Below are positions 27,777 through 61,800 of a DNA stretch of 64,000 bases, in pieces. The stretch comes from an uncultured Candidatus Saccharibacteria bacterium (GTDB lineage: Bacteria; Patescibacteriota; Minisyncoccia; Portnoybacterales; UBA2143). The notes below the pieces were generated by a model. The model saw only the letters and a program-made list of their open reading frames with translations, was not told the DNA's origin and did no database searches. The number at the start of each line of letters is the position of its first letter. Positions within the stretch are counted from its first letter, which is position 1. The stretch covers positions 43-64,042 of the forward strand of contig CAZVUG010000016.1 in assembly GCA_964629675.1 (NCBI GenBank), in the 5' to 3' direction. The translations under genes and the position numbers were made by a program.

Positions 27777-28050
27777 TTTTTTCGTTGATTCTAATTGCCT
27801 TACCGTGAATTAACGCGTCAGCTATTTTTCTTCTAGCTATGCATAAATTTCTTTGCAAGGTACTTTGAGAAACGCCCATTTTTTTAGCTGCTTCCGTTTG
27901 GCATTGATCTTTTAAATCACAAAGGCGGAGAGTCTCTATTTCATATCTTTCTAAAATTACTTCCTCCAATTCAAAAAGAGGAACCGCCCTTGGTTTAAAA
28001 TAAGTAGCTTTTGGGTCAATTTGAATTAATCTTTTTTTAACTGGCCTCAT
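27766..28050 (-). CDS. DUF134 (UPF0251) family putative DNA-binding protein
   Basis: 94 aa. YFKPRAVP...LE.YEIETLRLCDL...QTEAAKKMGVSQSTLQRNL..ARRKIADALIHGKAIRI is a sigma-70 region-4-like HTH characteristic of DUF134. Confidence 0.8.
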   Translation of the reverse strand: MRPVKKRLIQIDPKATYFKPRAVPLFELEEVILERYEIETLRLCDLKDQCQTEAAKKMGVSQSTLQRNLCIARRKIADALIHGKAIRINEKNEE

Positions 28051-28937
28051 ATTATTTCTTCCCTTAGATTTTGATAAATTTCTGTTAATTCCTTTTTTGC
28101 CTGAAGGTCGGTCTCTAAGATAGGCTTCAGGTTAGCAATAGCCTTAAAAATTCCTTGGTCATAAGAAATCTTTCCTAAGAAAAATTCTTTAAATTCTTTC
28201 TCTATTTGCTGGCTTATTTTAGGATTAATATCCCATTTATTAATAATTGTTTTAAAGGGAATACCGAAATGCTTAATAACTTTTAAAACTTTTTTAAAAT
28301 CAGCTAAACCAGAAGGTGTTGGTTCAGTGACCAGAACTGCTAAATCAACATCTTGAATTGAAGCAATAACCGGACAGCCTGTTCCAGGAGCTGAATCAAT
28401 CAACATTAATTCATAATCTTCATTTTCTTCGGCATATTTCTTAATTTCGCTGACTATTTTCCCCGAACCAGTTTCTCCAACAAAGAGATGTCCAGAAATA
28501 AGAGTAAAATAATTTTGCGAATTAAGATTAACTTTTTTGACTTTTATTTCTCCGTTTTGCACTGGTTTTAACTGGATAGCCTTTTTAGGACAAACTAATT
28601 CGCAAACACCGCAACCCTCACACAAGAAGCGGTTTAATTTAGGTTTGCCATTTTCCATCTTTATTGCTGAAAATTGGCATTTTTGGGCACAAATCCCGCA
28701 GCCATCGCATTTCTGATAATTAATTTCCGGCCGGTAAGAAGTAGTTACCGGAATAGTCTTTTGCCAATTTTCGAATTCGTTCAGCCAGATAGCCAAATTA
28801 GGCGCATCAACATCAGCATCGACAGCTATTATTTTCTTTTCTTGAGCAAATAAAGTAGCTAGAGCAGAGCTTAGCATTGACTTGCCGACGCCGCCTTTTC
28901 CTGAAACAATAGCTAATTTAAAATTTTTTTTTGTCAT
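28047..28937 (-). CDS. MinD/ParA-superfamily P-loop ATPase with inserted 2x[4Fe-4S] ferredoxin domain
   Basis: Deviant Walker A SGKGGVGKS. Two CxxCxxCxxxC(P) motifs (CDGCGICAQKC and CEGCGVCELVCP). Confidence 0.85.
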   Translation of the reverse strand: MTKKNFKLAIVSGKGGVGKSMLSSALATLFAQEKKIIAVDADVDAPNLAIWLNEFENWQKTIPVTTSYRPEINYQKCDGCGICAQKCQFSAIKMENGKPKLNRFLCEGCGVCELVCPKKAIQLKPVQNGEIKVKKVNLNSQNYFTLISGHLFVGETGSGKIVSEIKKYAEENEDYELMLIDSAPGTGCPVIASIQDVDLAVLVTEPTPSGLADFKKVLKVIKHFGIPFKTIINKWDINPKISQQIEKEFKEFFLGKISYDQGIFKAIANLKPILETDLQAKKELTEIYQNLREEII

Positions 28938-29524
28938 AAGACCTCTTTCAATTTATTAAAATCATTTTTCAAAAATTCTTTCATATTTTGATTATAGACT
29001 GCAACAGCTGGATGATAAAAAGGAATAATTTTTATTTTTCCATAATCTGCCTGTGAATCAAAAAATTGGCCATGAATTTTGCTAATTCCTTGGATTTCAT
29101 CCTTTAAATTAAATTTTTCTAAAAGATAAGCGGAAGCATAATTTCCTAAAGCGCCAATTACTTTAGGCTTAATAATATTAATTTGCCTTATTAAATAAGG
29201 AACGCAAGCTTCAATTTCTTCCTGCTGAGGATTACGATTATGAGGCGGCCGGTCTTTTAAAATATTAGTGATATATATTTCCTCTCTTTTAATGCCGGCT
29301 GATTCTAATAATTCATCTAAAACTTTTCCGGCTTGTCCGCAGAAAGGCCGGCCGGTTTTTGATTCGGAAGCACCCGGAGCTTCACCGACCAAAACTATTT
29401 TAGTTTGATGGTTGCCTTCGCCAATAACTGGCAAAATCCTTGTTTTGTATAAAGGACATTTTTGGCAGGCAATTACCTCTTCTTTGATTTTTTTTAGTTT
29501 TGTTTCTATTTCTTTTATTTGCAT
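28934..29524 (-). CDS. Uracil-DNA glycosylase, family 4 (Fe-S type)
   Basis: CQKCPLYKTR...GEGN...VLVGEAPGASE...GRPFCGQAG...HP are motifs of family-4 UDGs. Confidence 0.85.
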   Translation of the reverse strand: MQIKEIETKLKKIKEEVIACQKCPLYKTRILPVIGEGNHQTKIVLVGEAPGASESKTGRPFCGQAGKVLDELLESAGIKREEIYITNILKDRPPHNRNPQQEEIEACVPYLIRQINIIKPKVIGALGNYASAYLLEKFNLKDEIQGISKIHGQFFDSQADYGKIKIIPFYHPAVAVYNQNMKEFLKNDFNKLKEVL

Positions 29525-30285
29525 GATGAGAAGACAAGAGAGATTAAAAAGATCAAAGTAGCTGACAAAATGACCAAAGGACCTGCTGGTAGAGAAAAAG
29601 ATTCAAAAGCAATAATGCCAATAACAGAAGCAAGACTACCAATTAATAAAGCACCATAAGAATATTGGGATAAATTACGGGCGAAATTGCGCGCGGCTGC
29701 CGCTGGCGTAATAACTAAAGCGCCCATCAGGAGAGAACCAGTTACTTTTATTCCCAAAGCAACAACAACAGCAATGCAAGCTAAATAAATAAAATTATAT
29801 TTTTTGACCTTGATGTGCTCTACCTTAGCTAAATTTTCTGAAAGGTTAGCCAAAATTATCTTAGAAAAAATCTTTTTTAAAACCAGCCAAGTTAAAACAC
29901 ATAATATTATTGAAATTAAGGCATCCCAAAATCCGACTTGCGATATATCTCCAATTAAAGCAGTCGAGACTTCTTCTTCTGGCAAGAACAAAAAAGCAAT
30001 AGCTACAGAAGCTGTAAAAACGATGCCAGTTAATGCTTCCATTGGCAATTTTGTTCTCATTTCAAAAAGCCAAATTAAAATAATGCCTAAGATTAAGATT
30101 GGCAGCGCCCCTAGAGAAACATTAAATTCATAAATTAAAGCCAAAGCTACTCCAGGCAAAGCAACATGCCCTAAGGCATCGCCGACTAGCGCCATTCTTT
30201 TAGTTACCATTAGAGATCCTAGATAGCCTGCTAGCCCGCCGACAAAAACACCTATTATTAAACTATATAGAAATTGAACCTCCAT
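29515..30285 (-). CDS. Metal (Zn/Mn/Fe) ABC transporter permease, ABC-3/ZnuB-TroCD family
   Basis: 256 aa, about 8 TM segments, with ABC-3 family-like blocks (VGDALGHVALPGVALA). Confidence 0.8.
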   Translation of the reverse strand: MEVQFLYSLIIGVFVGGLAGYLGSLMVTKRMALVGDALGHVALPGVALALIYEFNVSLGALPILILGIILIWLFEMRTKLPMEALTGIVFTASVAIAFLFLPEEEVSTALIGDISQVGFWDALISIILCVLTWLVLKKIFSKIILANLSENLAKVEHIKVKKYNFIYLACIAVVVALGIKVTGSLLMGALVITPAAAARNFARNLSQYSYGALLIGSLASVIGIIAFESFSLPAGPLVILSATLIFLISLVFSSCK

Positions 30286-30940
30286 AAATTTTAGCTAAAT
30301 TTTTAGGATTAATTACTTTTTCCGGAGAACCAAAAAACAATTTTTCTTTGTTTAAGGCTAAAACTCTATCTGCCTTTTTAACAACTTCTCCTATTTCATG
30401 AGAGACTAGAATAATTGATTGATTCTTTTGCTGCCAAAGCTTAATTAAAGAGTCGTAAATAGTTTCCCGGCCATGAATATCAATACCGACCATCGGCTCG
30501 TCTAAAAGTAAAACATCTGGCTCATCTATTAAAACCCAGGCAATAGTTACTCTTTTTAGCTGCCCTGTAGAAAGGGTGCCTAATCTTTTATTTAAAAATT
30601 TAGTTGTATCTTTTATGCCTATCCAGCCAAGAGCTTCTGCTGCTCTTAATAATTTCTTATCCTTGAATTTGAAAAAATCCTTAACACTTAAAGGCAGATT
30701 CGGAGAAACATCAAAATTTTCAGGAACATAACCAACATGGATATCTTTTTTCCACTGAATTTTTCCTTTAAAGGGATGGAGGTTTAACAAAGTTCTTAAT
30801 AAGACGCTTTTGCCGGCTCCGTTCGGACCTAAGACAACCAGAACTTCTTTGCTTTTTAAATTAAAGCTTAAATTTTCTAGGACTTTTTCTTTGCCTAGCT
30901 CTACATTTAAATTTTCTACTTTAAGAATGCTTTCTGGCAT
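30263..30940 (-). CDS. Metal ABC transporter ATP-binding protein (ZnuC-like)
   Basis: Walker A GPNGAGKS, signature LSTGQ and Walker B LLLDEP. 23-nt overlap with the permease gene. Confidence 0.85.
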   Translation of the reverse strand: MPESILKVENLNVELGKEKVLENLSFNLKSKEVLVVLGPNGAGKSVLLRTLLNLHPFKGKIQWKKDIHVGYVPENFDVSPNLPLSVKDFFKFKDKKLLRAAEALGWIGIKDTTKFLNKRLGTLSTGQLKRVTIAWVLIDEPDVLLLDEPMVGIDIHGRETIYDSLIKLWQQKNQSIILVSHEIGEVVKKADRVLALNKEKLFFGSPEKVINPKNLAKIYGGSISI

Positions 30941-30942
30941 AA

Positions 30943-31869
30943 TTATTTATTTTGCTTTAAATAAGCAAAAATACTGCTAGCAGCAATAGCTCCTTCGGCG
31001 CAAGCAGTAATAATTTGGCGGAAATTATTAGATCCGTTAGTAATATCGCCAGCTGCCCAAACACCCTTAACATTAGTTGAGCCGCCGCTATCAATTTTAA
31101 TAAATCCATTCTGGTCTTTATCCAGATTCAATTCTTCGGCCATTTCTAAATGAGGAGCAATCCCCATTTCAACAAAAATACCATCTAAAGCTAAATTATT
31201 TTTTCCTTGGTGTTCTTTTTCTAAAACTGCCTCTTCCAAAAAATCATTTCCTTTTAATTCAGTAATTTTGTTTTCTAAAACTAATTCAATTTTAGGATTA
31301 CTTTTTACTTTTTTCTGCCAAATTTTATCTGCTTTCAATTCGCTTTCATGAATAAGATAAACTTTTTTAGCTATTTCTGCTAAATAATCGGCTGTAGTTG
31401 CTGCTGCACTGCTTCCGCCAATAACAGCAACAATTTTATCAGTAAATAATTTACCGTCACAGGTAGCGCAATAAGAAACGCCTTTGCCAAAAAATTCATT
31501 TTCGCCTGAGATGTTAAGTTTTTGCCTTTCGGCCCCCATAGCCAAAAGAATATTTTCGCTAAAATATTTTTGGCCAGTTATTGTTTCTAGCAAGAAACTA
31601 TCTTCTTGCCGGGAAATTTTAACTACTTTATCTGAAATTATTTCCGCGCCTAGCTTGCTAGCTGAATTTTCCATCTTTTTTACTAAATCTTCTCCTTTAA
31701 TTTCCTCTTCACTAGGGAAATTGCCAACTTTATGCGCTTCTGCCATTCGACCGTCAATTAAAGAGCCAATCATCAAATGATTTAAGCCGAATCGCGAAAG
31801 ATAAATTGAAGCCGTCATGCCTGCTGGGCCGCTACCAACAATTATTAAATTATATTTTTTTTCATTCAT
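30943..31869 (-). CDS. trxB: Low-Mr thioredoxin reductase homologue lacking the NADPH-binding HRRxxxR motif
   Basis: FAD motif VGSGPAGMTA and redox CATC (SYCATCDG). Where E. coli TrxR has VHLIHRRDGFRA, this protein reads VYLIHESELKA. Confidence 0.8.
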   Translation of the reverse strand: MNEKKYNLIIVGSGPAGMTASIYLSRFGLNHLMIGSLIDGRMAEAHKVGNFPSEEEIKGEDLVKKMENSASKLGAEIISDKVVKISRQEDSFLLETITGQKYFSENILLAMGAERQKLNISGENEFFGKGVSYCATCDGKLFTDKIVAVIGGSSAAATTADYLAEIAKKVYLIHESELKADKIWQKKVKSNPKIELVLENKITELKGNDFLEEAVLEKEHQGKNNLALDGIFVEMGIAPHLEMAEELNLDKDQNGFIKIDSGGSTNVKGVWAAGDITNGSNNFRQIITACAEGAIAASSIFAYLKQNK

Positions 31870-32914
31870 TATTTTTAAACAAAAAGCTTTTAATAGTCTT
31901 AATTAAGACTATTAAGCTAATTGCTATTAAGATTAAATAAACGCCAAAACCGCAATAGGCTAAAAAAGACTGATTAGTCAGCAGAGACTGATTTAAAGAA
32001 GCAATTGAAACAGAAGCTGTTGGAAAAACAAAAGCCCACCAGCTAATTCCATAAGGAAGCTCTATTTTTTTAAAATAATAGCCAGTTAATAAGATAAGTA
32101 AGATTAGCAACCAAAGGCCTATGCCAATTAACATTGGATTAATTAAAATTGGCAAAGCCATTAAAGATTCTTTAAATTCAGGCAAATATTTGCCAGTCTT
32201 TTCAGCAAATAAAGATAGAGACAAAGACATTAAAGAGAAAGGAACCAAAATAATCCAAAAGGAAGGAAAGATTTTTGGATTTAATTTCTCAAAGAAAAAA
32301 ACTTTGCTGAATAAAGATATGGCTATTAGCAAAAAAACAAAAGCGCCCGCACCAAAGAAAAAATAATTAATAAACAATATTATTTTAGCAACAGGAAGAT
32401 TAGAAATAAAAAAATTAATTATTTCCAATCCGGCAATTGGCGTCAGTAAAGCAGCTACTGGCGGCACTAACCACCCCCCATTAATAAAATTAATATTCAT
32501 TTCCTCGTTAATAATCAATGAATAAACAGCTAAGGTCAGTAGGATAAATTCAAAGATAGCGCCAACAAACCAAAAGATAATTGAAATATCTTGATAATTC
32601 CAAAGAGACAAATTAAAGCCCAGCTTAGAAAAGTTGATAGCAATCATGATCATTGCTGCCGGCATTAATGAATGAAAGCCAGCCATTATTGGGCTTTTTA
32701 ACTCTTCGGCCAAAAGATCAGCGTAAACTACAGCTTTTAAAATCCAGAAAATAAACAAGAAAACAAATAAAAACAAATTAAAGTAAACTAATAAGGAAGT
32801 AAAAGGAATTAGCCAAGGAAAATTAAAAATCTTTGCGACTAAGAAAGAAGCAATAGCTATCCCACCAAAACCTAATACTGTTGCAAACCAAATTGGACTA
32901 AATTTTTTAATCAT
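31862..32914 (-). CDS. TDT-family (TehA/Mae1/Ssu1-like) anion transporter
   Basis: 350 aa, about 10 TM segments. N-terminal PIWFATVLGFGGIA resembles TehA/C4-dicarboxylate-malate transporter family openings. Overlaps trxB and trx by 8 nt each. Confidence 0.6.
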   Translation of the reverse strand: MIKKFSPIWFATVLGFGGIAIASFLVAKIFNFPWLIPFTSLLVYFNLFLFVFLFIFWILKAVVYADLLAEELKSPIMAGFHSLMPAAMIMIAINFSKLGFNLSLWNYQDISIIFWFVGAIFEFILLTLAVYSLIINEEMNINFINGGWLVPPVAALLTPIAGLEIINFFISNLPVAKIILFINYFFFGAGAFVFLLIAISLFSKVFFFEKLNPKIFPSFWIILVPFSLMSLSLSLFAEKTGKYLPEFKESLMALPILINPMLIGIGLWLLILLILLTGYYFKKIELPYGISWWAFVFPTASVSIASLNQSLLTNQSFLAYCGFGVYLILIAISLIVLIKTIKSFLFKNNE

Positions 32915-33251
32915 TTTTTAATTGAAGCTCTGTTTCTAATTCCCCCTTAAACATTTCAAAAGGCCTTAGCCCGATAAATTCTTGAGCTACTTGGCCATTC
33001 TTAAAAAGCTTTATATTAGGAATGCTTCTAATATCATATTGAATAGCTAAATTTTGATTCTCTGGAATTTCTGTGTTTAACTTGCAAATTTTTAATTGTC
33101 CGTCAAACTCTTCCGAAAGACTTTCTAAAACTGGCGCCATCATCAAGCAAGGCTGACACCAAGGAGCCCAGAAATCTACTAAAGTAGGAATTTCTGATTC
33201 CAAAACTTCTTCTTGAAAATTTTCACTTGTAACTTCGATTATTTTTGACAT
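32907..33251 (-). CDS. trxA: Thioredoxin with WCQPC active site
   Basis: 114 aa. VDFWAPWCQPCLMMAP in a thioredoxin fold (the canonical motif is WCGPC). Confidence 0.88.
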   Translation of the reverse strand: MSKIIEVTSENFQEEVLESEIPTLVDFWAPWCQPCLMMAPVLESLSEEFDGQLKICKLNTEIPENQNLAIQYDIRSIPNIKLFKNGQVAQEFIGLRPFEMFKGELETELQLKND

Positions 33252-33268
33252 ATTTTTATTTTATTTAA

Positions 33269-33652
33269 TTATTTTCTGCCACCGCCACCCATTCCTTGAC
33301 CTCGGCCATCTCGAGGGCCTAGTCCCATGCCTCTGCCTTGGCCAGCGCCCATTCCCCGACCTCCTCTTAAACCTCGACCAAATTCTATTCCTTGGTTAGA
33401 TCTTTCCGGCTCAAATGAAGATTTATCCGCTGGCTCTTCATTTTTTTCCGCAGAAGATTCTTTCTGGCTTTCTTCCTCAGAAATTTTTTCTATAGCCCCC
33501 ATTGGACAAACGCTTTCTCCGCCGCATTCTGCCAGTTTCTCCTGACTTATTATGTCAACTTTTCCGTTAGAGTTGAACTCAGTCGCCCCCGGGCAAGACT
33601 GCAGACAAACGCCACAACCAATGCATTTCTCTTGATTTACCTTATATTTCAT
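33269..33652 (-). CDS. [4Fe-4S] ferredoxin with acidic linker and C-terminal Gly/Arg-rich tail
   Basis: CIGCGVCLQSCP plus a distal CP (SVCPMGAI), then EEESQKESSAEKNEE, then GRGLRGGRGMGAGQGRGMGLGPRDGRGQGMGGGGRK. Confidence 0.8.
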   Translation of the reverse strand: MKYKVNQEKCIGCGVCLQSCPGATEFNSNGKVDIISQEKLAECGGESVCPMGAIEKISEEESQKESSAEKNEEPADKSSFEPERSNQGIEFGRGLRGGRGMGAGQGRGMGLGPRDGRGQGMGGGGRK

Positions 33653-33741
33653 AACTTTTAAGATAAAAACCTTTATATTTGCGACAGCAAATTAATTTAC
33701 TATCGTAAAAATAAAAGCTATTTTTTATTAATTTAAATTTA

Positions 33742-35088
33742 TTACATTATTTTTCCCAAAGCTGACTGTGCTGCTGTAATTAACGGGTAGACAGTTGGCG
33801 CAGAAGTTAGCAGCGGATGCGTTGAAATTTGCAAAGAATCAAAATCATATAAAGTTGCCCGCCGCTGGATAGCCAAAGAAATTACATTGACTAATTCGCC
33901 AGCACTTTTTCCGCCAATTACTTGGCCGCCCAAGAGATTACCAGAGTCTTTAGAAAAAATAAGCTTAACTTTAATCTTTCTGGTATGAGGTAAGGTTCCT
34001 GGATGATGATCAGGAGCTTCACTCTCACCAACAATTGTTTCAAATCCTTCGTTTCGAGCTGTTTCCTCGCTGAAGCCAACACCGCCAAACATTGAATCTT
34101 TCAGATATGTTGAAAAGGCACCTAAAGTCCCTTTGTTTTCCCTGAAAATTTCTAATTGATAAAGGCTAGCTCCGGCTATTCTGGCTTCTGAGCAAGCTGT
34201 TGAAGCAAGCATCACTAGAATGGATTTACTAGTAAAGAAATCTTTCGTTTGCGCGCAATCACCGACAGCAAAAACGTCATCATAATTAGTTCTCATATAT
34301 TCATCAACTAGGATATTACCGTTTTCTTCTATCCTAATCCCGGCTTCTTTAGCTAATTCTATATTAGCTTTTGCTCCAATTGATAGAATAACTAAATCAG
34401 TTTCAATCTCTTTCTTGTCATCCAAAATTACTTTTTCAACTTTATCATTACCAGCAATTTCTTCAATCATTCTGCCAGTATGAATTTTAACTCCTTTTTC
34501 TTCTAGTTTCTTTTGTGCCTCCAAAGCAAATTCTTTATCAAAATTTGCCATTAAGCAAGTATCCATTTTTTCGACAATGTTTATTTCTTTGCCTTCTAGG
34601 CTACTGATTTCTTCTGCCATTTCTACGCCAATAAAACCGCCGCCAATAATAACTATTTTCTTAGCTTCCATGACTGCTTCTCTCATTTTTTTCAAATAAT
34701 CAACTTCTTTTTTAACTAGCCAAACTCCTTCTTTCTCAATTCCTTTAATAGGAATTTTAGTTGAGCTAGAACCAGTTGCTAAAACAAGCTTTTCGTATTC
34801 AATCTCTCCTTTTTTGGCCAAGGAAACTTTTTTGATTTTAGGATCAATTTTTTTAGCTTCATCTATAATTAAATCAATTTTATTCTTTGTTAATGGATCA
34901 TCTGGCGTAATATTTTTATCTACTGAATCTAAGCGATGAAAAATATATGGAATACCGCAAGGAACAACTGATTTTTGCTCTTTACGGACCAAGGTAATTT
35001 TTTTATCCGGGTTATGTTTTCTGGCAGTAATTGCCGTCACTATGCCGGCTGGACCTCCGCCAATAATTAAAATGTCTGTTTTGTTCAT
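33742..35088 (-). CDS. FAD-dependent pyridine nucleotide-disulfide oxidoreductase (NADH oxidase/CoA-disulfide reductase family)
   Basis: GGGPAG FAD motif, single redox Cys in KSVVPCGIPY, a second Rossmann motif IIGGGFIGVE and AVGDCA. Confidence 0.8.
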   Translation of the reverse strand: MNKTDILIIGGGPAGIVTAITARKHNPDKKITLVRKEQKSVVPCGIPYIFHRLDSVDKNITPDDPLTKNKIDLIIDEAKKIDPKIKKVSLAKKGEIEYEKLVLATGSSSTKIPIKGIEKEGVWLVKKEVDYLKKMREAVMEAKKIVIIGGGFIGVEMAEEISSLEGKEINIVEKMDTCLMANFDKEFALEAQKKLEEKGVKIHTGRMIEEIAGNDKVEKVILDDKKEIETDLVILSIGAKANIELAKEAGIRIEENGNILVDEYMRTNYDDVFAVGDCAQTKDFFTSKSILVMLASTACSEARIAGASLYQLEIFRENKGTLGAFSTYLKDSMFGGVGFSEETARNEGFETIVGESEAPDHHPGTLPHTRKIKVKLIFSKDSGNLLGGQVIGGKSAGELVNVISLAIQRRATLYDFDSLQISTHPLLTSAPTVYPLITAAQSALGKIM

Positions 35089-35915
35089 AAAATTGTCTCC
35101 TTAATATTTAATAATTTACTTTGCGAATAAGCTTTAACAATTTCCTTAGAATAAGGAAGTTCTTTTTCTATTTCTACCTTGTATTTTTTAGCTGTTTCTT
35201 CAACCATCTTTTTATCGCCTAGATTAGCTTGATTAAGAATTATTTTAACCGGCAGTTTCAACTGCTGACATAAATCTAAAATCAAACCTAGATCAACTGA
35301 CCCCATTGGCGTTGGCTCAGTTACTGCGTAAACTGAATCAACTCCCAAAAGAGCGTTGATAACTGGACAATGAGTCCCAGCCGCTGTATCTAAGATAACA
35401 AGATCTGCCTTATTTTTATCAGCAAATTCTAAAGCAAATTCTTTAACTTGGTTTACAATTGGCCCAGTTTCTTCTAATCCTGGCTTAGCCAAACCAGTAA
35501 TTAGATGAAAGCCTTTTTCAATTTGATTAAGATATATTTCCCCGACTTCTTTCTTCTCCGGCTTGATTGCTCCGTAAGGGCAAACATTCCAGCAAGCGCC
35601 ACAGCCTGAGCATAGATCCATAACAAAAATTGGATATTGTCCAGGAGCTTGGAAAATGGCATTTTCCCGGCAAGCTTTGACGCAAATTCCGCATTTTTGG
35701 CATTTGCTTTTATCTAATTTCGGGAAAGAAGCTGTTGCTTTCGCTACTGGTTTTTGCAACTTTTTGCCGATTAATAAATAATCATTTGGGCATTCTACAT
35801 CGCAGTCGACAAGAACAACCTTTTTATCTTTTTTAAAATAATTATTAGCTAGAATAACTGAGACAGTGGATTTCCCTGTCCCGCCTTTCCCTCCACTAAT
35901 GGCTATTTTCTCCAT
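35085..35915 (-). CDS. MinD/ParA-superfamily ATPase with inserted 2x[4Fe-4S] ferredoxin domain (second copy)
   Basis: Walker A GGKGGTGKS; CQKCGICVKAC and CSGCGACWNVCP. Confidence 0.85.
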   Translation of the reverse strand: MEKIAISGGKGGTGKSTVSVILANNYFKKDKKVVLVDCDVECPNDYLLIGKKLQKPVAKATASFPKLDKSKCQKCGICVKACRENAIFQAPGQYPIFVMDLCSGCGACWNVCPYGAIKPEKKEVGEIYLNQIEKGFHLITGLAKPGLEETGPIVNQVKEFALEFADKNKADLVILDTAAGTHCPVINALLGVDSVYAVTEPTPMGSVDLGLILDLCQQLKLPVKIILNQANLGDKKMVEETAKKYKVEIEKELPYSKEIVKAYSQSKLLNIKETIL

Positions 35916-35916
35916 A

Positions 35917-37155
35917 TTAAATCTTCTCCCTAGTAGGCTCTTTTAATGGCTTTAGCTTATTTTTTTGAAATTGGGCAATAATATTTCTAATATCTCCATC
36001 TTCTCCCCAATAGATATCAACAATGTTGTCCCTTAAGGCATGCAGAGAAATCGGCCCCATTTCTTTGCTAATTACTGAATCAATTTTTTCATTAATGACT
36101 AATTGAACTGTGCTCAAACCAGCCCTTATTTTTTTCCCTTGATAAATATTATTTTTAACATAATATCCCTGAATCCCCTGGCTGTCTAAATTAATAAAAA
36201 TAAAGTTCTTAGCTCGGCCAAAATGCTCAGAGATTATTGAATCAAGGCCTTGATCTTCTTCAATTGGTATGCAAATCTTTTGCTTGTGGACCATAAAAGG
36301 CAAAACAGTAACTGTAAAAGTATCAATTGCCTTTATTTTTCTTTTAATTTCCTTTTCAATATTTTCCGAGATTTCATAAGCTCTTTTAACATCTATGCTC
36401 TTGCCAATTTTAATTTTGACTTCGCCAAAAATAAGGGGGCCTGATTTTCTTAATCTTAAATTTTCAAATTCGCGGACGCCAGAAATATTATTTAAAATTT
36501 TCTCAATTTTTTCCTCATTTTCCTTTGACGGCGAGACATCCATCAAGGCAAAAATAGAATCTTTAGCTGAACTTAAACCAGCTTCAAAAATAAACAAAGA
36601 GATCAAAATTCCCATGACTCCTTCTAAATAAGAAATTTCCAGCCAAGCAGCAAATAAGCCGATTAAGACTAAGGAAGAAGAAAGCAAATGTAAACGAGAT
36701 TCCCGGCCGTCAGCAACTAAACTTTGCGAATTGATCTTTTTGCCTATTTTAACTTCGTAAGTGCCAATTGAAAACATGACAATGGCGTCTAAAATAGCTG
36801 CGCCAATTGCCACTAAGGGAATATTTAATTCTGGCTTAACAAATAATTCAGAAAAGCTTTCTCTAATAATTGTTACGCCGGCAAAAATAATTAAAACTGA
36901 AATCAAAAAAGCAGTTAGATTTTCTGCTTTGTAATAACCATAGGAAAATTTTTTAGTCGGCCTTTTCTGGGAAATTTTTAAGCCGAACCAAGCAGCAAAA
37001 CTAGAAAGAGAATCAGCTGCGCTATGAATAGCATCACCCATCAGAACAACACTTCCGGAAATAAGGCCAATTATTCCCTTAAGGACCGCTAAACTTATTG
37101 TTGCCAAGGCCGAAATAATAGTAGTTCTTTGGCCTTTTTTAAAAATTTCCGCCAT
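35917..37155 (-). CDS. Cation diffusion facilitator (CDF) transporter fused to a C-terminal NifX/NifB-like (Nitro_FeMo-Co) domain
   Basis: TM2 metal site GDAIHSAADSLSS, six TM segments and a cytoplasmic CDF domain. The last roughly 110 aa (KICIPIEEDQGLDSIISEHFGRAKNFIFINL...) match the NifX-like fold pattern of the next gene. Confidence 0.75.
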   Translation of the reverse strand: MAEIFKKGQRTTIISALATISLAVLKGIIGLISGSVVLMGDAIHSAADSLSSFAAWFGLKISQKRPTKKFSYGYYKAENLTAFLISVLIIFAGVTIIRESFSELFVKPELNIPLVAIGAAILDAIVMFSIGTYEVKIGKKINSQSLVADGRESRLHLLSSSLVLIGLFAAWLEISYLEGVMGILISLFIFEAGLSSAKDSIFALMDVSPSKENEEKIEKILNNISGVREFENLRLRKSGPLIFGEVKIKIGKSIDVKRAYEISENIEKEIKRKIKAIDTFTVTVLPFMVHKQKICIPIEEDQGLDSIISEHFGRAKNFIFINLDSQGIQGYYVKNNIYQGKKIRAGLSTVQLVINEKIDSVISKEMGPISLHALRDNIVDIYWGEDGDIRNIIAQFQKNKLKPLKEPTREKI

Positions 37156-37528
37156 ATCTTCTTCCCATGCCTAAATGGGATGGGCCAGTTGGCCCTTTAA
37201 TTTCTTTTAATTCTCCCTGACTATATTTTTTTAAAGCTTCTCTGGCAGAAATGCCAGCAACTCCAGTAAATATTTTTAGACCGCTGCTACTTAAAACAGC
37301 AAAAGCTCGCGGGCCAACATTGCCCGTAATAATAACTTTTGCTCCTGAAGAAGCAACTGCCTGAGCAGCCGTAATACCGGCTCCGCCCATTGCTTCTATT
37401 CCTGGATTATTGATCACTTCTACTTTTTTCCCTTCTTGATCAGTGACTAAAAAATAATTAGCCCTACCAAAACGAGGGTCTATCGGCGAATCTAGATTAG
37501 GAGAACTAACGCTTAGACAAATCTTCAT
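37139..37528 (-). CDS. NifX/NifB-like (dinitrogenase FeMo-cofactor-binding family) protein with Gly/Pro/Arg tail
   Basis: MKICLSVSS..LDSPIDPRFGRANYFLV...GGAGITAAQAV...GAKVIITGNVGPRAF. C-terminal tail GPTGPSHLGMGRRYGG. Confidence 0.8.
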   Translation of the reverse strand: MKICLSVSSPNLDSPIDPRFGRANYFLVTDQEGKKVEVINNPGIEAMGGAGITAAQAVASSGAKVIITGNVGPRAFAVLSSSGLKIFTGVAGISAREALKKYSQGELKEIKGPTGPSHLGMGRRYGGNF

Positions 37529-37530
37529 AA

Positions 37531-37800
37531 TTAATTGTTTTTATTTAGCTCCTCAAGGCGATTTTTAATTCCTTCCGTATCTTTTTTTAAAAGATTCAAT
37601 TCTTCATTAAGAATTTTCTTTTCTTCTTCTTTGGCTGGCTGAGATTCTTCAGAATAATAACGTCTGAATCCATAGCCTCTACCAAATCCTAAACCGCGGC
37701 CATAGCCGTAACGAGAAGTATAACCTGGAAAGCAGTTACCCATTCCCCGTCCAGTTCTTGGACCTAGTCCTTGAGGGCCTCTTCCATTTAAAGCAGGCAT
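37531..37800 (-). CDS. DUF5320-family protein
   Basis: N-terminus MPALNGRGPQGLGPRTGRGMGNCFPG..., followed by a Gly/Arg/Tyr-rich stretch and a C-terminal coiled coil. This is the architecture typical of DUF5320. Confidence 0.75.
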   Translation of the reverse strand: MPALNGRGPQGLGPRTGRGMGNCFPGYTSRYGYGRGLGFGRGYGFRRYYSEESQPAKEEEKKILNEELNLLKKDTEGIKNRLEELNKNN

Positions 37801-37823: not shown

Positions 37824-37888
37824 CCTCATAATATTATTATATCAGATAACTACGACTTTTAACACTGTTAATAGTTATCTATTATGAG
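37824..37888. promoter_or_regulatory. Nested palindromes overlapping the putative promoter of the DUF5320 operon
   Basis: Three nested inverted repeats: CTCATAAT (37824-31) / ATTATGAG (37881-88); AGATAACTA (37844-52) / TAGTTATCT (37872-80); inner TTAACA-C-TGTTAA (37859-71). Minus-strand TGTTAA, 17 nt, TATAAT (37841-36) would make the inner palindrome overlap the -35 element. Confidence 0.4.
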
Positions 37889-37911
37889 TATATACCCATA
37901 ACAAACCATTG

Positions 37912-38946
37912 TCAAGCTCTATTCCACTCTTTCAGATTATCCATTAATTTCTGCTCGAGCAGAATTTCTTCCAGTCTTTCCTTGTATTCAGGCTTTTTAA
38001 TTTGGTCCGTTACTTTTTGGTATCCTTGATATTGTTTTAAAAGCTGATCTCGCTTTTCATCAATTTCTTTATCGTTTACTTTAATCTCCCCTTTTTTAAG
38101 AATTTCCCTGAGAATTAAAGAGATTTTCACTCTTTTTTCAGCAACTGGGGAAAATTCTTTTTTAAGATCTGCTTCACTTTTTTTAGCATTTTGCAAGTAA
38201 TCCTCAAATTTTCCTCCTTGAGAAACAATATTTTTCTTAAGATTAGCCAGCATTGATTCTATCTCTTGATTAACAATTGCTTCCGGGATTTCTCCAAACT
38301 GTGAATTCTTTATTATTTTTTCCAAAATATCTGATTCAAATTTTTCTTTGGCTGCCTGCTTTTTTTGTTCTAAAAGATATTTTTCTAAATCTTCTTCTAA
38401 TTTTTTCAGGCTTTCGAAATTCAATCCTTTAGCAAAATTATCATCTATTGGCTTTTTCTCTTCTTCTTTCTTTTCTTCATCTTTTTTCCCATCAACTTTC
38501 ATCTTTTTCAGAAATTCCAATTGTTTTTTGATTTCTTCTTTATTAACTTCTGCTTTATCTTCTTTGACTTTTAGATTCTTGTATTCGCCTAAAGTTATTT
38601 CCGGCAAAATGTTTAAAATAATCTTATATTCTAAATCATTGCCAGAAGCTATTTTAGTTATCTCAACTTCCGGCTGACCAAGAAAAGAGGCTTTTGCTTT
38701 TTTTAAAACCTCGGGAAGATTGCTTCGGATAGCTAAAGAAGCAGCTCTTTCTAAAACAGCCATCTCACCGACTCTTTGTTTAACTACTTCAAAAGATGCT
38801 TTCCCTTGGCGAAATCCCTTTATTTTAATTTCTTGAGATATTTCCGCAGCACCTTTATCAAAATATTTTTTAAAATCAGCAAAAGGCAAAACAACTGCTA
38901 AAGCGATTCTCCCCTTTCCCAATTCTTTCTTCTCTATTTTTATCAT
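37912..38946 (-). CDS. tig: Trigger factor lacking the PPIase domain
   Basis: N-terminal ribosome-binding signature GFRQGKAS and a C-terminal TF arm domain. The central FKBP domain is replaced by a Lys/Glu-rich linker (344 aa). Confidence 0.75.
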   Translation of the reverse strand: MIKIEKKELGKGRIALAVVLPFADFKKYFDKGAAEISQEIKIKGFRQGKASFEVVKQRVGEMAVLERAASLAIRSNLPEVLKKAKASFLGQPEVEITKIASGNDLEYKIILNILPEITLGEYKNLKVKEDKAEVNKEEIKKQLEFLKKMKVDGKKDEEKKEEEKKPIDDNFAKGLNFESLKKLEEDLEKYLLEQKKQAAKEKFESDILEKIIKNSQFGEIPEAIVNQEIESMLANLKKNIVSQGGKFEDYLQNAKKSEADLKKEFSPVAEKRVKISLILREILKKGEIKVNDKEIDEKRDQLLKQYQGYQKVTDQIKKPEYKERLEEILLEQKLMDNLKEWNRA

Positions 38947-60477: not shown

Positions 60478-61267
60478 TCAATTTTTTCTCCTTATTTTTC
60501 TTCGGAAACCGGCGAAAGCTAATAAGCCCGATCCCAACAAAAACATTGTTGCTGGCTCAGGTACAGGAGCAGCCGAGCCTTCAATAACATCATTAGCGCA
60601 TGTCGCTGTACCCCAAACTAATCTCATTGACGCATCCAGATCATCTTCCCAGAATCCAGTTTCAATACTAATTCTATAGTCAGGAGAACCTCCAGGAAGA
60701 GAATTCCAAGTAACTTTCCCGCCTGGTAAACAGTCATAGCCATAATTATTACCTAAAGAACTTATTCTTACCGGAACGTCATGATTGTAACTATATGATC
60801 CAGGAGACGGATCAAAATCATCTGAAGTTAGATAGTTACCAACGGCATAGAGGCCTCCGGCAAAAAAAGTTCCATGATTTATTAAAGGAATTGCCCAAAG
60901 GTATTCATTCCCATAGAAATTCTCATACATGAAAAGATCGGCCGGCTCAGTTATCCAGCTTGCCGACAGTAACTCCTGATTGCGGATAGTCGGTATATAA
61001 ATCAAAGATGATATTGCCGCTGTTATGTCCTGGGGTAAAGTTCTTAATGTCAATGCCATAGCCTTCAAAACCTGTTCCAATCTGATCTCCAATTGGATCA
61101 TTTATGCTATATGCCATAACCGTTCCACTTATTAAAAAAGGAAATAATAAGATAGAAATAAATAGTATTTTTTTCATCAAAGACACTCCTTTCGCATAAG
61201 CCTTAGTTGTTTCTTCCATTATTATGGCAGCTAATAAGACAACTATAAATAATATCTTCTTTCCCAT
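60478..61267 (-). pseudogene. PEP-CTERM-anchored secreted protein, interrupted by a frameshift
   Basis: Two overlapping ORFs (61267-60947 and 61101-60478). The upstream ORF encodes signal peptide(s) and ends ...SGVTVGKLDN*. The downstream frame continues ...SWITEPADLF... and ends with VPEPATMFLLGSGLLAFAGFRRKIRRKN, i.e. PEP motif, TM segment and Arg-rich tail. A best start at ATG 61177 is preceded by AAGGAG. Confidence 0.7.
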
Positions 61268-61343
61268 TAGACACCCCCTTGCTGCTTTAATTAAATCTAA
61301 AAATCAGTTTTCACCTCCTTCCTTTTTTTAAAAGAACAATAAT

Positions 61344-61372
61344 ATCATAAATCTTTAAAATTATTCTGTCAA
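61344..61372 (-). promoter_or_regulatory. Promoter of the PEP-CTERM gene
   Basis: Minus strand: TTGACA (61372-67), 17 nt, TATGAT (61349-44). Confidence 0.55.
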
Positions 61373-61442
61373 TCTTTCAATTTTAAAAAGACCGTTTAGG
61401 ATTTCTCCATGGCTAATCGGTCTTAATAAAGCCAGTTTACTG

Positions 61443-61577
61443 TTAAATTCCTAAATACTTAGCTAAGTATTTATCCGGATCTGATCTCATTAAATTTGGA
61501 ATATATTTAGTATATTCCGAGACAGTTCCGTTTTGCAAAGAAACAGCGACAAGATTTAAGAAATGAGCAATAAACAT
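61443..61577 (-). CDS. 44-aa ORF downstream of the riboswitch-like leader
   Basis: MFIAHFLNLVAVSLQNGTVSEYTKYIPNLMRSDPDKYLAKYLGI*. AGGAGG lies 4 nt upstream of the ATG. Not in the ORF track (under 60 aa). Confidence 0.5.
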   Translation of the reverse strand: MFIAHFLNLVAVSLQNGTVSEYTKYIPNLMRSDPDKYLAKYLGI

Positions 61578-61610: not shown

Positions 61611-61800
61611 CAAAAAATCCCTCTTTGAGGGAATAAAAAAATATTAATACTCTCAAGCCTCGAAGAGATAATACTTAAAAGAAAATAATTAAGCGACCTG
61701 GCTTATTTCTTGCCCTTAGGCAAAAACATCACAGTTGCGGGTCAGCCGAGGATTCTCACCTCAGTTCGTTAATCATTATCTGCTTATTTTAAAATTACTT
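61611..61800 (-). promoter_or_regulatory. Cobalamin-riboswitch-like leader with terminator expression platform
   Basis: Minus-strand core GAACUGAGGUGAGAAUCCUCGGCUGACCCGCAACUGUGA closely parallels the conserved cobalamin aptamer core (GGUGnGAAUCC...GCnGnCCCGCnACUGUGA). Further elements: a closing helix AUUAACGA/UCGCUUAAU, a small hairpin UUGCC-UAAG-GGCAA, an AAGCCAGG B12-box-like element, and terminator UCCCUC-AAA-GAGGGA plus U6 (61632-61612). Confidence 0.6.

What the first reader, a model, noticed from the sequence alone, without database searches (positions are those of the whole stretch)
35917..37155. CDF metal transporter fused to a NifX/NifB-like cofactor-binding domain
Seen: a 412-aa ORF combines three parts.
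- A six-TM cation-diffusion-facilitator core with the DAIHSAAD site.
- The usual cytoplasmic CDF domain.
- An extra roughly 110-aa C-terminal domain (KICIPIEEDQGLDSIISEHFGRAKNFIFINL...VISKEMGPISLHAL...). Its pattern parallels the stand-alone NifX-like protein encoded immediately upstream, which overlaps it by 17 nt.

Inference: the fusion places a putative metal-cluster or cofactor-binding fold directly at the cytoplasmic mouth of a divalent-cation transporter. That implies hand-off or sensing of the transported metal (Fe2+ or Zn2+, or possibly Mo/W species). It is one of the more informative clues to the function of the surrounding uncharacterised gene set.
Basis: partly seen in the sequence, partly recalled or inferred. 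Interest (0 to 1): 0.55.

Follow-up and report, generated by a model that had tools for sequence, protein, structure and literature searches.

The report
Metal exporter with Fe–S-carrier-like domain
This is a real, widely conserved membrane metal-export protein carrying an extra cytoplasmic domain of the kind that binds iron–sulfur species in anaerobes, and it always sits beside the genes of a poorly understood "orange-protein"-type metal-cluster system, so it offers a testable link between metal transport and iron–sulfur handling in tiny anaerobic microbes.

Summary
ORF 35917..37155 (−) encodes 412 aa with a six-helix CDF core, the CDF cytoplasmic dimerisation domain and a C-terminal PF02579 domain, all above Pfam thresholds. 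It overlaps an upstream stand-alone PF02579 gene by 17 nt. It is not an artefact: the 120 best homologues share the architecture, and an independent assembly holds the identical gene.

The extra domain belongs to the non-nitrogenase MTH1175/TM1816/orange-protein (IssA-type) branch, not to true NifX/NafY/NifB. No nif or Mo genes are present.

Of 54 related loci with adequate flanks (CPR bacteria, DPANN archaea, Methanosarcinales), 46 keep a solo NifX-like gene and 47 keep MinD-type ATPases with a 2×[4Fe-4S] insert. This matches the parts list of the Desulfovibrio ORP complex. A rare variant adds a DUF59 Fe–S-assembly domain.

The transport-site quartet varies by lineage (H-D/E-H here), while the extra domain's signature stays fixed.

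Best reading (about 0.5): a divalent-cation (probably Fe2+) exporter whose extra domain binds an anionic metal–sulfur species or docks the ORP-like ATPases. Databases call it only a "CDF transporter", and I found no paper on it. New variant of a known kind; moderate interest.

The parts
35917..37155 (-). Whole gene: 412-aa CDF transporter fused to an MTH1175/IssA/ORP-type PF02579 domain (stop codon 35917-35919)
36541..37155 (-). Transmembrane domain, residues 1-205, six helices (Pfam Cation_efflux 13-205)
   Evidence: Foldseek to ZnT7/YiiP/ZnT1, E about 1e-13
37012..37035 (-). TM2 motif DAIHSAAD (D41-D48). H44 and D48 align with YiiP D45 and D49 (transport site A)
   Evidence: H44 invariant and D48 invariant or nearly so
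36688..36732 (-). TM5 motif NSQSLVADGRESRLH (N142-H156). E152 and H156 align with YiiP H153 and D157, giving the unusual site-A quartet H-D/E-H
   Evidence: E152 and H156 invariant; lineage comparison
36301..36540 (-). Cytoplasmic CDF C-terminal (dimerisation) domain, residues 206-285 (Pfam ZT_dimer 209-283). The YiiP site-B and site-C histidines are not conserved
35920..36300 (-). Short linker plus PF02579 domain and conserved tail, residues 286-412. Signature: FG[R/K]314, N336, [R/K]344-A-G346, E365-x-G367, tail LKxLKEPT
37139..37528 (-). Stand-alone PF02579 (NifX-like) protein, 129 aa, with a short Gly/Arg tail; overlaps the fusion gene by 17 nt
37531..37800 (-). DUF5320 protein, 89 aa. N-terminal 50 residues are Gly/Arg/aromatic-rich (pI 10.9). 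Probably the first gene of the operon
37887..37915 (-). Promoter-like site TTGACA-17-TATACT (11 of 12) in the gap between the trigger-factor gene and the DUF5320 gene
35085..35915 (-). MinD/ParA-type P-loop ATPase with an inserted 2x[4Fe-4S] ferredoxin domain (paralogue A). It starts 1 nt after the fusion gene's stop codon
   Evidence: conserved neighbour
28047..28937 (-). Second MinD/ParA-type ATPase with a 2x[4Fe-4S] insert (paralogue B, 35% identical to A)
33269..33652 (-). Small 4Fe-4S ferredoxin-like protein with a Gly/Arg-rich cationic tail (residues 88-127, pI 12)
29515..35088 (-). Same-strand genes between the two ATPase paralogues: CoA-disulfide-reductase-like (33742..35088), the ferredoxin above, thioredoxin (32907..33251), TehA/SLAC1 channel (31862..32914), TrxB-like (30943..31869), ABC ATPase (30263..30940), ABC-3 permease (29515..30285). 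Whether they belong to the functional unit is uncertain; they are only sporadically linked in other loci

Best explanation
The gene encodes a genuine cation-diffusion-facilitator (CDF) antiporter that moves a divalent metal, most likely Fe2+, out of the cytoplasm. Its cytoplasmic regulatory end is extended, through a very short linker, by a domain of the MTH1175/IssA/orange-protein branch of the PF02579 superfamily.

The protein is the membrane component of a conserved operon: a solo NifX-like protein, the fusion, then two MinD-type ATPases each with a 2x[4Fe-4S] insert. This has the same parts list as the Desulfovibrio ORP complex.

Proposed mechanism: the extra domain uses its conserved basic pocket (FG[R/K], N, [R/K]-A-G) to bind an anionic metal-sulfur species, or it docks the ATPase pair as Orp8 does with Orp3/Orp4. 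Metal efflux through site A would then be gated by, or fed from, the cell's Fe-S pool under sulfidic, low-redox conditions.

Shown: the architecture, the fold, the conservation and the synteny. Inferred: the metal, the ligand, and the coupling between transport and the Fe-S pool.
For: - Architecture and fold.
- The CDF part scores best against Fe/Mn-type CDF models (MamB 145 bits, MamM 144, MntE 125, FieF 110) and much lower against ZitB (57) and DmeF (36).
- Only transport site A is conserved. The YiiP site-B and site-C histidines are replaced (F70, Y74; E231, K247, Y260), so the usual CTD metal-sensing sites are missing and another regulator is plausible.
- The linker between the last CTD strand (279-286) and the first strand of the extra domain (292-298) is only about 5 residues.
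- The extra domain's signature is kept across CPR, DPANN and Methanosarcinales. Its mean pairwise identity (0.49) is close to that of the CTD (0.57).
- Branch assignment to MTH1175, TM1816, TM1290, PH0822 and ORP.
- Members of this branch bind Fe-S or metal-sulfide species: the IssA domain binds Fe and S as anionic thioferrate (PMC5524996); the MrpORP Di-Nase domain binds a [3Fe-4S] cluster, and Orp8 is homologous to proteins carrying a Mo-Cu sulfide cluster (PMC6345978).
- Synteny: of 54 loci with adequate flanks, 46 have the solo NifX-like gene, 47 have at least one and 42 at least two MinD-Fer4 genes, always on the same strand, with a median gap of 17 nt.
- Orp3, Orp4 and Orp8 co-purify.
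- The Methanosarcina locus adds a Mrp/NUBPL Fe-S transfer ATPase (326 bits).
- A variant (P0208) has a DUF59/FeS_assembly_P domain fused after the PF02579 domain.
- Three Gly/Arg/aromatic-rich cationic segments in the operon resemble the IssA tail.
Against: - There is no experimental datum on any member of this fusion family.
- The fused domain has no conserved cysteine (one Cys, C295, replaced in archaeal homologues) and no IssA-like cationic tail.
- Site-A quartets predict selectivity poorly (PMC5703985), and they vary between lineages here. The metal may therefore differ between clades, and Fe2+ is only a contextual guess.
- An ABC-3 (Znu/Mnt/Tro-type) importer lies in the same gene string and in a few other loci, which would fit Zn or Mn homeostasis equally well.
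- The function of the ORP complex itself is unresolved.
- No suf or isc genes are in the window.
- The search for DUF5320 fused to PF02579 (a 'split IssA') found nothing.
Confidence: 0.5

Rival explanations
1. It is an ordinary Zn2+/Co2+/Mn2+ detoxification exporter. The extra domain is only a structural dimerisation module, or a sensor of the same cation, with no link to Fe-S chemistry. The neighbourhood would reflect general metal and redox homeostasis.
For: One public record names an orthologue 'Cobalt-zinc-cadmium resistance protein'. TM2 has the HxxxD of Zn-type CDFs. An ABC-3 importer lies in the same string and in L001, L007, L018 and L054. The MrpORP Di-Nase domain is a dimer, so a purely dimerising role is conceivable.
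Against: The gene is very tightly and widely linked to MinD-Fer4 and NifX-like genes rather than to metal-resistance genes. A DUF59 Fe-S assembly domain is fused in a variant. The conserved basic, anion-type pocket is retained while the cation site varies. The CDF part scores closer to Fe/Mn-type models than to ZitB or DmeF.
Confidence: 0.25
2. It is part of a minimal, membrane-anchored Fe-S cluster assembly or salvage machine. Here the CDF supplies iron to, or removes it from, a cluster built on the PF02579 domains with electrons and ATP from the MinD-Fer4 pair. This would be a biosynthetic rather than a homeostatic role.
For: IssA can rebuild the [4Fe-4S] cluster of ferredoxin. MrpORP transfers clusters to Orp3/4/8. 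The cluster is retained in reduced CPR and DPANN genomes.
Against: All characterised CDFs export from the cytoplasm (family knowledge; PMC5703985). There is no cysteine desulfurase or scaffold gene nearby. Nothing here tests it.
Confidence: 0.12
3. It handles Mo, W or Cu thiometallate (orange-protein-type heterometallic) clusters, as the first reader suggested with 'Mo/W species'.
For: The orange protein is among the best structural matches (2wfb, TM-score 0.84 normalised to the query and 0.89 to the target). ORP homologues carry a Mo-Cu sulfide cluster.
Against: CDFs carry divalent cations, not oxo- or thio-anions. No mod, tup, moa or moe genes and no Cu genes are in the window. By sequence the domain is closer to MTH1175 and TM1816 (1e-16) than to ORP (8e-6).
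Confidence: 0.07
4. It is an assembly or frameshift artefact joining two genes, or a bona fide nitrogenase-cofactor (NifX/NifB) protein.
For: None found. A stand-alone PF02579 gene does lie next door.
Against: More than 120 homologues have the same architecture and length. There are 89 fusion-bearing cluster representatives among the 150 closest. An independent assembly holds the identical gene. It occurs in complete genomes of cultured Methanosarcina. There is no nif context, and no NifX, NafY or NifB hit at E<1.
Confidence: 0.01

Closest known systems
CDF transporters YiiP/FieF, MamB/MamM, MntE, ZnT (Pfam PF01545 + PF16916; TIGR01297)
   Same: Six-helix transmembrane domain and alpha/beta C-terminal domain. 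TIGR01297 scores 204 bits against a cut-off of 82. Fold matches to ZnT7, YiiP and ZnT1 have E about 1e-13. Site A lies on TM2 and TM5, with the conserved Asp (D48) and a His on TM2.
   Different: It falls far below every equivalog cut-off (MamB 145 bits against 350; FieF 110 against 420). Its site-A quartet H-D/E-H is not among those I read about in PMC5703985. The YiiP site-B and site-C histidines are absent. It has an extra domain of about 125 aa after the CTD.
IssA, the iron-sulfur storage protein of Pyrococcus furiosus (PF2025; PMC5524996)
   Same: The extra domain belongs to the same non-nitrogenase branch of IPR003731 as MTH1175, which was the template used to model IssA. The operon also encodes Gly/Arg/aromatic-rich cationic segments like the IssA tail.
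   Different: In the fusion the domain has no cationic tail and is tethered to a membrane transporter. I had no IssA sequence to compare directly. Fe/S binding is untested.
ORP (orange protein) complex of Desulfovibrio vulgaris, Orp3/4/5/8/9, including MrpORP (PMC6345978, PMC8359166)
   Same: Same kinds of parts: a PF02579 protein (Orp8-like), two paralogous proteins each with two [4Fe-4S] motifs (Orp3/Orp4-like), and, in Methanosarcina loci, a Mrp/NUBPL ATPase. MrpORP sets a precedent for fusing a PF02579 'Di-Nase' domain to another Fe-S-related module. Both systems are restricted to anaerobes.
   Different: No CDF is reported in the ORP complex. No sigma-54/OrpR regulator was seen here. Here the PF02579 domain is fused to a transporter, not to Mrp. 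I inferred equivalence to Orp3/Orp4 from domain architecture, not from a direct sequence comparison.
NifX / NafY / NifB C-terminal domain (nitrogenase cofactor carriers)
   Same: Same Pfam family and fold. By Foldseek, NifX (9ian_F) has E 2.9e-5 and NafY (1p90) has E 1.5e-4.
   Different: There is no sequence-profile hit at E<1, no nif genes, and no radical-SAM domain. The host lineages (CPR, DPANN) are not diazotrophs (general knowledge).

Membership tests
Cation diffusion facilitator (CDF) family | Match to the family HMMs above the curated cut-offs (PF01545, TIGR01297) | tested here: met
   PF01545 scores 140 bits against 26.6. TIGR01297 scores 204 bits against 82.
Cation diffusion facilitator (CDF) family | Six transmembrane helices followed by a cytoplasmic alpha/beta C-terminal domain | tested here: met
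   AlphaFold model secondary structure. Foldseek matches to YiiP and ZnT structures, target-normalised TM-score 0.67-0.75 for the top hits. ZT_dimer E 4e-15.
Cation diffusion facilitator (CDF) family | Transport site A: two polar or charged residues four apart on TM2 and two on TM5 | tested here: met
   H44 and D48 on TM2, E152 and H156 on TM5, aligned to YiiP D45, D49, H153 and D157. Invariant or nearly so in 72 homologues. The composition H-D/E-H is unusual.
Cation diffusion facilitator (CDF) family | Metal/H+ antiport activity and homodimer formation | not testable with these tools
   Needs proteoliposome transport assays and a multimer model or structure.
Specific CDF equivalogs (MamB, MamM, MntE, FieF, ZitB, DmeF) | Score above the NCBIfam equivalog cut-off | tested here: not met
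   The best is MamB at 145 bits against a cut-off of 350. All others are lower.
PF02579 / IPR003731 (Nitro_FeMo-Co, 'Di-Nase') superfamily | HMM match above the gathering score, and the family fold | tested here: met
   49 bits against 26.3. The domain profile hits MTH1175 and TM1816 at 2e-16. The domain model (pLDDT 87) has its top 15 Foldseek hits all in this family, then a sharp drop.
Nitrogenase NifX / NafY / NifB branch | Closest relatives are NifX, NafY or NifB; nif gene context | tested here: not met
   No NifX, NafY or NifB hit at E<1 with the domain profile. By fold they rank 14th and 15th. No nif genes are in the window.
IssA clade (thioferrate storage) | IPR003731 domain of the MTH1175-like branch | tested here: met
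   MTH1175 is placed with IssA in PMC5524996.
IssA clade (thioferrate storage) | Cationic, Gly/Arg/aromatic-rich disordered C-terminal tail on the same polypeptide, with high pI | tested here: not met
   The fused domain ends in a 12-residue LKPLKEPTREKI tail, and its pI is 8.8. Such segments occur on neighbouring proteins instead (DUF5320, the ferredoxin, the solo NifX-like protein).
IssA clade (thioferrate storage) | Binds Fe and S and forms nanoparticles | not testable with these tools
   Requires anaerobic reconstitution, ICP-MS, XAS and EM.
ORP (orange protein) complex-like system | Two paralogous proteins each with two [4Fe-4S] motifs (Orp3/Orp4), encoded with a PF02579 protein (Orp8) | tested here: met
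   35085..35915 and 28047..28937 are 35% identical paralogues, each with a CbiA/ParA P-loop and two Fer4 motifs. Solo PF02579 gene at 37139..37528. The trio is conserved in 42-47 of 54 loci. Direct sequence comparison with DVU2103, DVU2104 and DVU2108 was not possible.
ORP (orange protein) complex-like system | Mrp/NBP35 protein with a Di-Nase domain (Orp9/MrpORP), and sigma-54/OrpR control | tested here: not met
   No Mrp gene and no sigma-54 activator are in the window's gene string; there are only weak partial MrpORP hits. A separate Mrp/NUBPL gene is present in the Methanosarcina locus. The promoter-like site here is sigma-70 type.
ORP (orange protein) complex-like system | Physical complex of the proteins | not testable with these tools
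Needs pull-downs or AF-Multimer.

The most novel reading that the evidence does not exclude
The fusion protein, the solo NifX-like protein, the two MinD-Fer4 ATPases and the Gly/Arg-rich proteins together form a previously unrecognised membrane-anchored system. This system would build, store or dismantle inorganic iron-sulfide species (thioferrate or FeS-cluster-like) and couple that directly to iron transport across the membrane. It would be a minimal Fe-S economy for ultra-small anaerobes (CPR, DPANN) and Methanosarcinales, and it would give the enigmatic ORP complex a concrete function.
Probability: 0.12. Interest if true: 0.8.

Novelty: new variant of a known kind. Interest (0 to 1): 0.5.

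Why it matters
CDF transporters are thought to be regulated by metal sites in their own cytoplasmic domain. Here those sites are missing and a cofactor-carrier-type domain has been added instead, which would be a new regulatory or hand-off principle for the family.

The fusion also physically ties a membrane metal transporter to the ORP/IssA-type gene set. The role of that gene set in anaerobes has been open since its discovery; proposals include cell division, Mo-Cu clusters and Fe-S storage.

The same architecture occurs in genetically tractable Methanosarcina, so the hypothesis is directly testable. The results would carry over to uncultured CPR and DPANN organisms, which keep this cluster despite their small genomes.

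Tried and rejected
- **Frameshift or assembly artefact:** rejected.
- **True NifX/NifB function:** rejected. There was no profile hit to NifX, NafY or NifB and no nif genes.
- **'Split IssA' idea** (DUF5320 being the detached IssA tail): a search with the DUF5320 protein gave only 12 stand-alone proteins and no PF02579+PF17253 fusion. This is inconclusive, because the word index is weak on low-complexity sequence.
- **Metal riboswitch upstream of the operon:** none at the gathering threshold, and only a chance-level hit at E<1.
- **Operator-like inverted repeat** at 37844..37880: real, but not found in the other 80 loci.
- **Literature on the fusion:** searches for CDF with NifX, for PF02579/IPR003731, for the MTH1175 family, for IssA, for ORP, and in methanogen Fe/S omics papers found no description of it. 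The ANME-2a paper (PMC12622379) lists a similar neighbourhood but interprets it speculatively as an F430/nickel system.
- **Predicting the metal from the site-A quartet:** abandoned, because PMC5703985 shows only a weak correlation.
- **Direct comparison with the IssA and Orp3/4/8 sequences:** not possible, because I could not retrieve those sequences.
Full report
**1. Observation**

The ORF at 35917..37155 on the minus strand encodes 412 aa. Pfam finds three domains, all above their gathering scores:
- Cation_efflux, residues 13-205, E 8e-41
- ZT_dimer, residues 209-283, E 4e-15
- Nitro_FeMo-Co (PF02579), residues 305-398, E 7e-13, 49 bits against a cut-off of 26.3

NCBIfam places the protein in the CDF superfamily (TIGR01297, 204 bits against 82). 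It falls far below every equivalog cut-off. The best scores are MamB 145, MamM 144, MntE 125 and FieF 110; ZitB (57) and DmeF (36) score much lower.

An AlphaFold2 model built on 72 homologues has mean pLDDT 86. It shows six long helices, the alpha/beta CTD, and after a linker of about five residues a further alpha/beta domain with pLDDT 88-93. The DAIHSAAD motif is residues 41-48.

The gene upstream (37139..37528) is a stand-alone PF02579 protein. It overlaps the fusion gene by exactly 17 nt. It aligns with the C-terminal domain at 27% identity over 117 aa, E 2e-12, including a shared LKx[LI]KxPT tail.

**2. Not an artefact**

- The 120 best database hits (52-100% identity, 407-439 aa) all carry the same three domains.
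- The junction is aligned without indels and has conserved residues (P286, K293, P297).
- An independent Logan assembly of run SRR2989655 contains the identical protein with the same neighbours.
- I searched 1.84 billion cluster representatives with the C-terminal domain alone. This gave 614 hits at E<=1e-3 and 103 at E<=1e-10.
- Of the best 150 hits, 89 have CDF sequence upstream: 53 near-complete and 36 N-truncated fragments.
- Nine of ten odd-length hits that I scanned were the same architecture.

**3. Where it occurs**

A scan of one genome per GTDB species returned full-length matches in several lineages:
- MAGs titled Patescibacteria or Shapirobacteria, plus other placeholder names
- DPANN archaea (Aenigmat-, Woese-, Micr- and Iainarchaeota)
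- Thermoplasmatales and a Bathyarchaeote
- at 31-35% identity, cultured Methanosarcina and Methanococcoides strains

The Methanosarcina sp. Mfa9 orthologue is 410 aa with the same three domains. Public records name it 'cation diffusion facilitator family transporter' or 'Cobalt-zinc-cadmium resistance protein'. The extra domain is not reflected in any name.

The window itself looks like a CPR chromosome segment: about 33% GC and housekeeping genes such as MraZ/MraW, a PBP, a Mur ligase, ribosomal proteins and Lgt. It has no nif, suf/isc or Mo-related genes.

**4. What the extra domain is**

- A profile of the domain hits MTH1175 (2e-16), TM1816 (4e-16), TM1290 (5e-13), PH0822 (2e-12), the D. 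gigas orange protein (8e-6) and MJ0327 (1e-4).
- The same profile finds no NifX, NafY or NifB at E<1.
- A separate model of the domain has pLDDT 87 and pTM 0.82.
- Its top 13 Foldseek hits are those same non-nitrogenase structures. ORP has TM-score 0.84 normalised to the query and 0.89 to the target.
- NifX (9ian_F, 2.9e-5) and NafY (1p90, 1.5e-4) come next. After them the hits drop sharply to generic RNase-H-like folds.

So 'NifX/NifB-like' is correct at superfamily level, but the domain belongs to the MTH1175/IssA/ORP branch.

Members of this branch bind inorganic metal-sulfur species:
- The IssA IPR003731 domain binds Fe and S as anionic thioferrate, and IssA can rebuild a [4Fe-4S] ferredoxin (PMC5524996).
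- Orp8 is homologous to proteins that carry a non-covalent Mo-Cu sulfide cluster.

Across all lineages the fused domain keeps P297, FG[R/K]314, N336 and [R/K]344-A-G346, and mostly D376 and the PT tail. In the model these residues lie at strand ends and helix starts. I read this as an anion-binding pocket, which is an inference. There is no conserved cysteine; the single Cys (C295) is replaced in archaeal homologues.

**5. The transporter part**

Alignment with E. coli YiiP (2qfi) pairs H44 and D48 with D45 and D49, and E152 and H156 with H153 and D157. E152 and H156 are invariant in 72 close homologues.

Across 80 loci the quartet tracks lineage:
- H-D/E-H in the CPR group, including the window
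- H-D/E-D in most DPANN, Thermoplasmatales and Bathyarchaeota
- H-D/H-D in Methanosarcinales
- a few E-D/D-D or D-D/D-D

HD-HD and HD-ED are described quartets. I did not find HD-EH in the passages of PMC5703985 that I read, and that paper warns that quartets predict selectivity poorly.

The YiiP site-B histidines (H71, H75) correspond to F70 and Y74. The site-C histidines (H232, H248, H261) correspond to E231, K247 and Y260 (the site assignments are from my knowledge of YiiP). The usual cytoplasmic metal-sensing sites are therefore absent.

**6. Neighbourhood**

In the window the same-strand gene string runs as follows:

| Coordinates (−) | Product |
|---|---|
| 37531..37800 | DUF5320 |
| 37139..37528 | solo NifX-like protein |
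| 35917..37155 | the fusion |
| 35085..35915 | MinD/ParA ATPase with a 2×[4Fe-4S] insert, starting 1 nt after the fusion's stop codon |
| 33742..35088 | CoA-disulfide-reductase-like |
| 33269..33652 | ferredoxin with a Gly/Arg tail |
| 32907..33251 | thioredoxin |
| 31862..32914 | TehA/SLAC1 |
| 30943..31869 | TrxB-like |
| 29515..30940 | ABC ATPase (30263..30940) and ABC-3 permease (29515..30285) |
| 28934..29524 | UDG-family protein |
| 28047..28937 | second MinD-Fer4 paralogue, 35% identical to the first |

A promoter-like site (11 of 12 matches) lies in the gap before the DUF5320 gene. No riboswitch is present there.

Across 54 related loci with at least 2.5 kb on both flanks:
- 46 have a solo NifX-like gene within 4 kb
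- 47 have at least one MinD-Fer4 gene and 42 have at least two
- these are always on the same strand as the fusion
- one lies directly downstream in 42 loci, with a median gap of 17 nt

The redox genes and the ABC importer are linked only sporadically.

The Methanosarcina locus reads: Mrp/NUBPL Fe-S transfer ATPase (326 bits), DUF134, two NifX-like genes, the fusion, two MinD-Fer4 genes, DUF169.

This is the parts list of the Desulfovibrio ORP complex. Orp3 and Orp4 each have two [4Fe-4S] motifs, Orp8 is a PF02579 protein, and Orp9/MrpORP is Mrp plus a Di-Nase domain. Orp3, Orp4 and Orp8 co-purify, and MrpORP loads them with clusters. The orp operons are expressed only at very low redox potential, and their function remains open.

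A 524-aa representative (P0208) adds a DUF59/FeS_assembly_P domain after the PF02579 domain, with the typical SSVCP motif. This is a further, independent link to Fe-S assembly.

**7. Mechanism proposed**

Shown:
- It is a CDF with an intact site A.
- It has a rigidly tethered IssA/ORP-type domain with a conserved pocket.
- It is in operon-level linkage with ORP-type partners across two domains of life.

Inferred:
- The transporter exports a divalent cation, most likely Fe2+. This rests on the context and on its closest HMM relatives being the Fe/Mn-type CDFs.
- The extra domain replaces the missing CTD metal sites as the regulatory or hand-off element. It would either bind an anionic metal-sulfur species or dock the MinD-Fer4 pair as Orp8 does.
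- The cation site varies between lineages while the extra domain does not. A shared partner or ligand is therefore more likely than direct sensing of the transported cation.

I put about 0.5 on this composite. The main rival (0.25) is a generic Zn/Co/Mn exporter whose extra domain has a merely structural or sensing role. A biosynthetic Fe-S machine (0.12) and a thiometallate role (0.07) are not excluded. An artefact or a true nitrogenase-cofactor function is excluded in practice.

**8. Novelty and score**

The architecture sits unremarked in public databases. I found no paper describing it in the searchable library. One ANME-2a paper lists a similar neighbourhood with a speculative nickel/F430 reading.

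It combines known families in a way that suggests a new regulatory or hand-off principle for CDFs and gives a handle on the ORP/IssA problem. I rate it a new variant of a known kind, with interest 0.5.

Noticed in passing
window 61639..61794 (-), and downstream 60478..61577: An AdoCbl (B12) riboswitch (RF01482, 61.6 bits against a gathering score of 50). It is followed not by a B12-related gene but by a small ORF and two overlapping ORFs: a 106-aa signal-peptide-like one and a 207-aa one with a PEP-CTERM motif. These two may be one frameshifted gene. This is an unusual target for a B12 riboswitch.
   Followed up: partly
window 37844..37880: A perfect 9-bp inverted repeat, AGATAACTA-N19-TAGTTATCT, lies just downstream of the promoter-like site before the DUF5320 gene. 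It could be an operator or a 5'-UTR hairpin for the operon. It is absent from the other 80 related loci.
   Followed up: partly
window 37651..37800 (DUF5320 residues 1-50), 33272..33391 (ferredoxin residues 88-127), 37142..37198 (solo NifX-like tail): Three cationic Gly/Arg(/aromatic)-rich low-complexity segments (pI 10.9-12) occur in one operon. They resemble the thioferrate-binding tail described for IssA. A search for DUF5320 fused to PF02579 found nothing.
   Followed up: partly
L001-L080 (alignment of the fusion proteins): The CDF transport-site quartet switches with lineage (H-D/E-H, H-D/E-D, H-D/H-D, E-D/D-D, D-D/D-D) while the fused domain's signature is constant. CPR and DPANN versions are 40-50% identical to each other but only about 33% identical to the Methanosarcinales versions, which hints at transfer between the two groups of ultra-small organisms.
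   Followed up: partly
protein P0208 (524 aa, from the representative library): A four-domain variant: CDF + ZT_dimer + PF02579 + FeS_assembly_P (DUF59). P0258 (941 aa) carries three PF02579 repeats, and several proteins of about 240-290 aa carry two.
   Followed up: partly
window 28934..35088 (-): A redox and transport gene set is wedged between the two MinD-Fer4 paralogues: CoA-disulfide-reductase-like, thioredoxin, TrxB-like, a TehA/SLAC1 anion channel, an ABC-3 metal importer without an adjacent binding-protein gene, and a UDG-family gene. The combination recalls sulfur and polysulfide stress responses, but it is only sporadically linked in other loci.
   Followed up: no
L069 4040..10450 (Methanosarcina sp. 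Mfa9): In a cultured methanogen the cluster is flanked by a Mrp/NUBPL Fe-S transfer ATPase, a DUF134 protein and a DUF169 protein. These could be further members of the system.
   Followed up: partly
L008, L009, L013, L014, L018 and others: Several MAG records carrying CPR-type versions of the gene are titled 'uncultured Gammaproteobacteria' or 'Pseudomonadales'. These titles look like placeholder or mis-assigned taxonomy. I did not check them.
   Followed up: no
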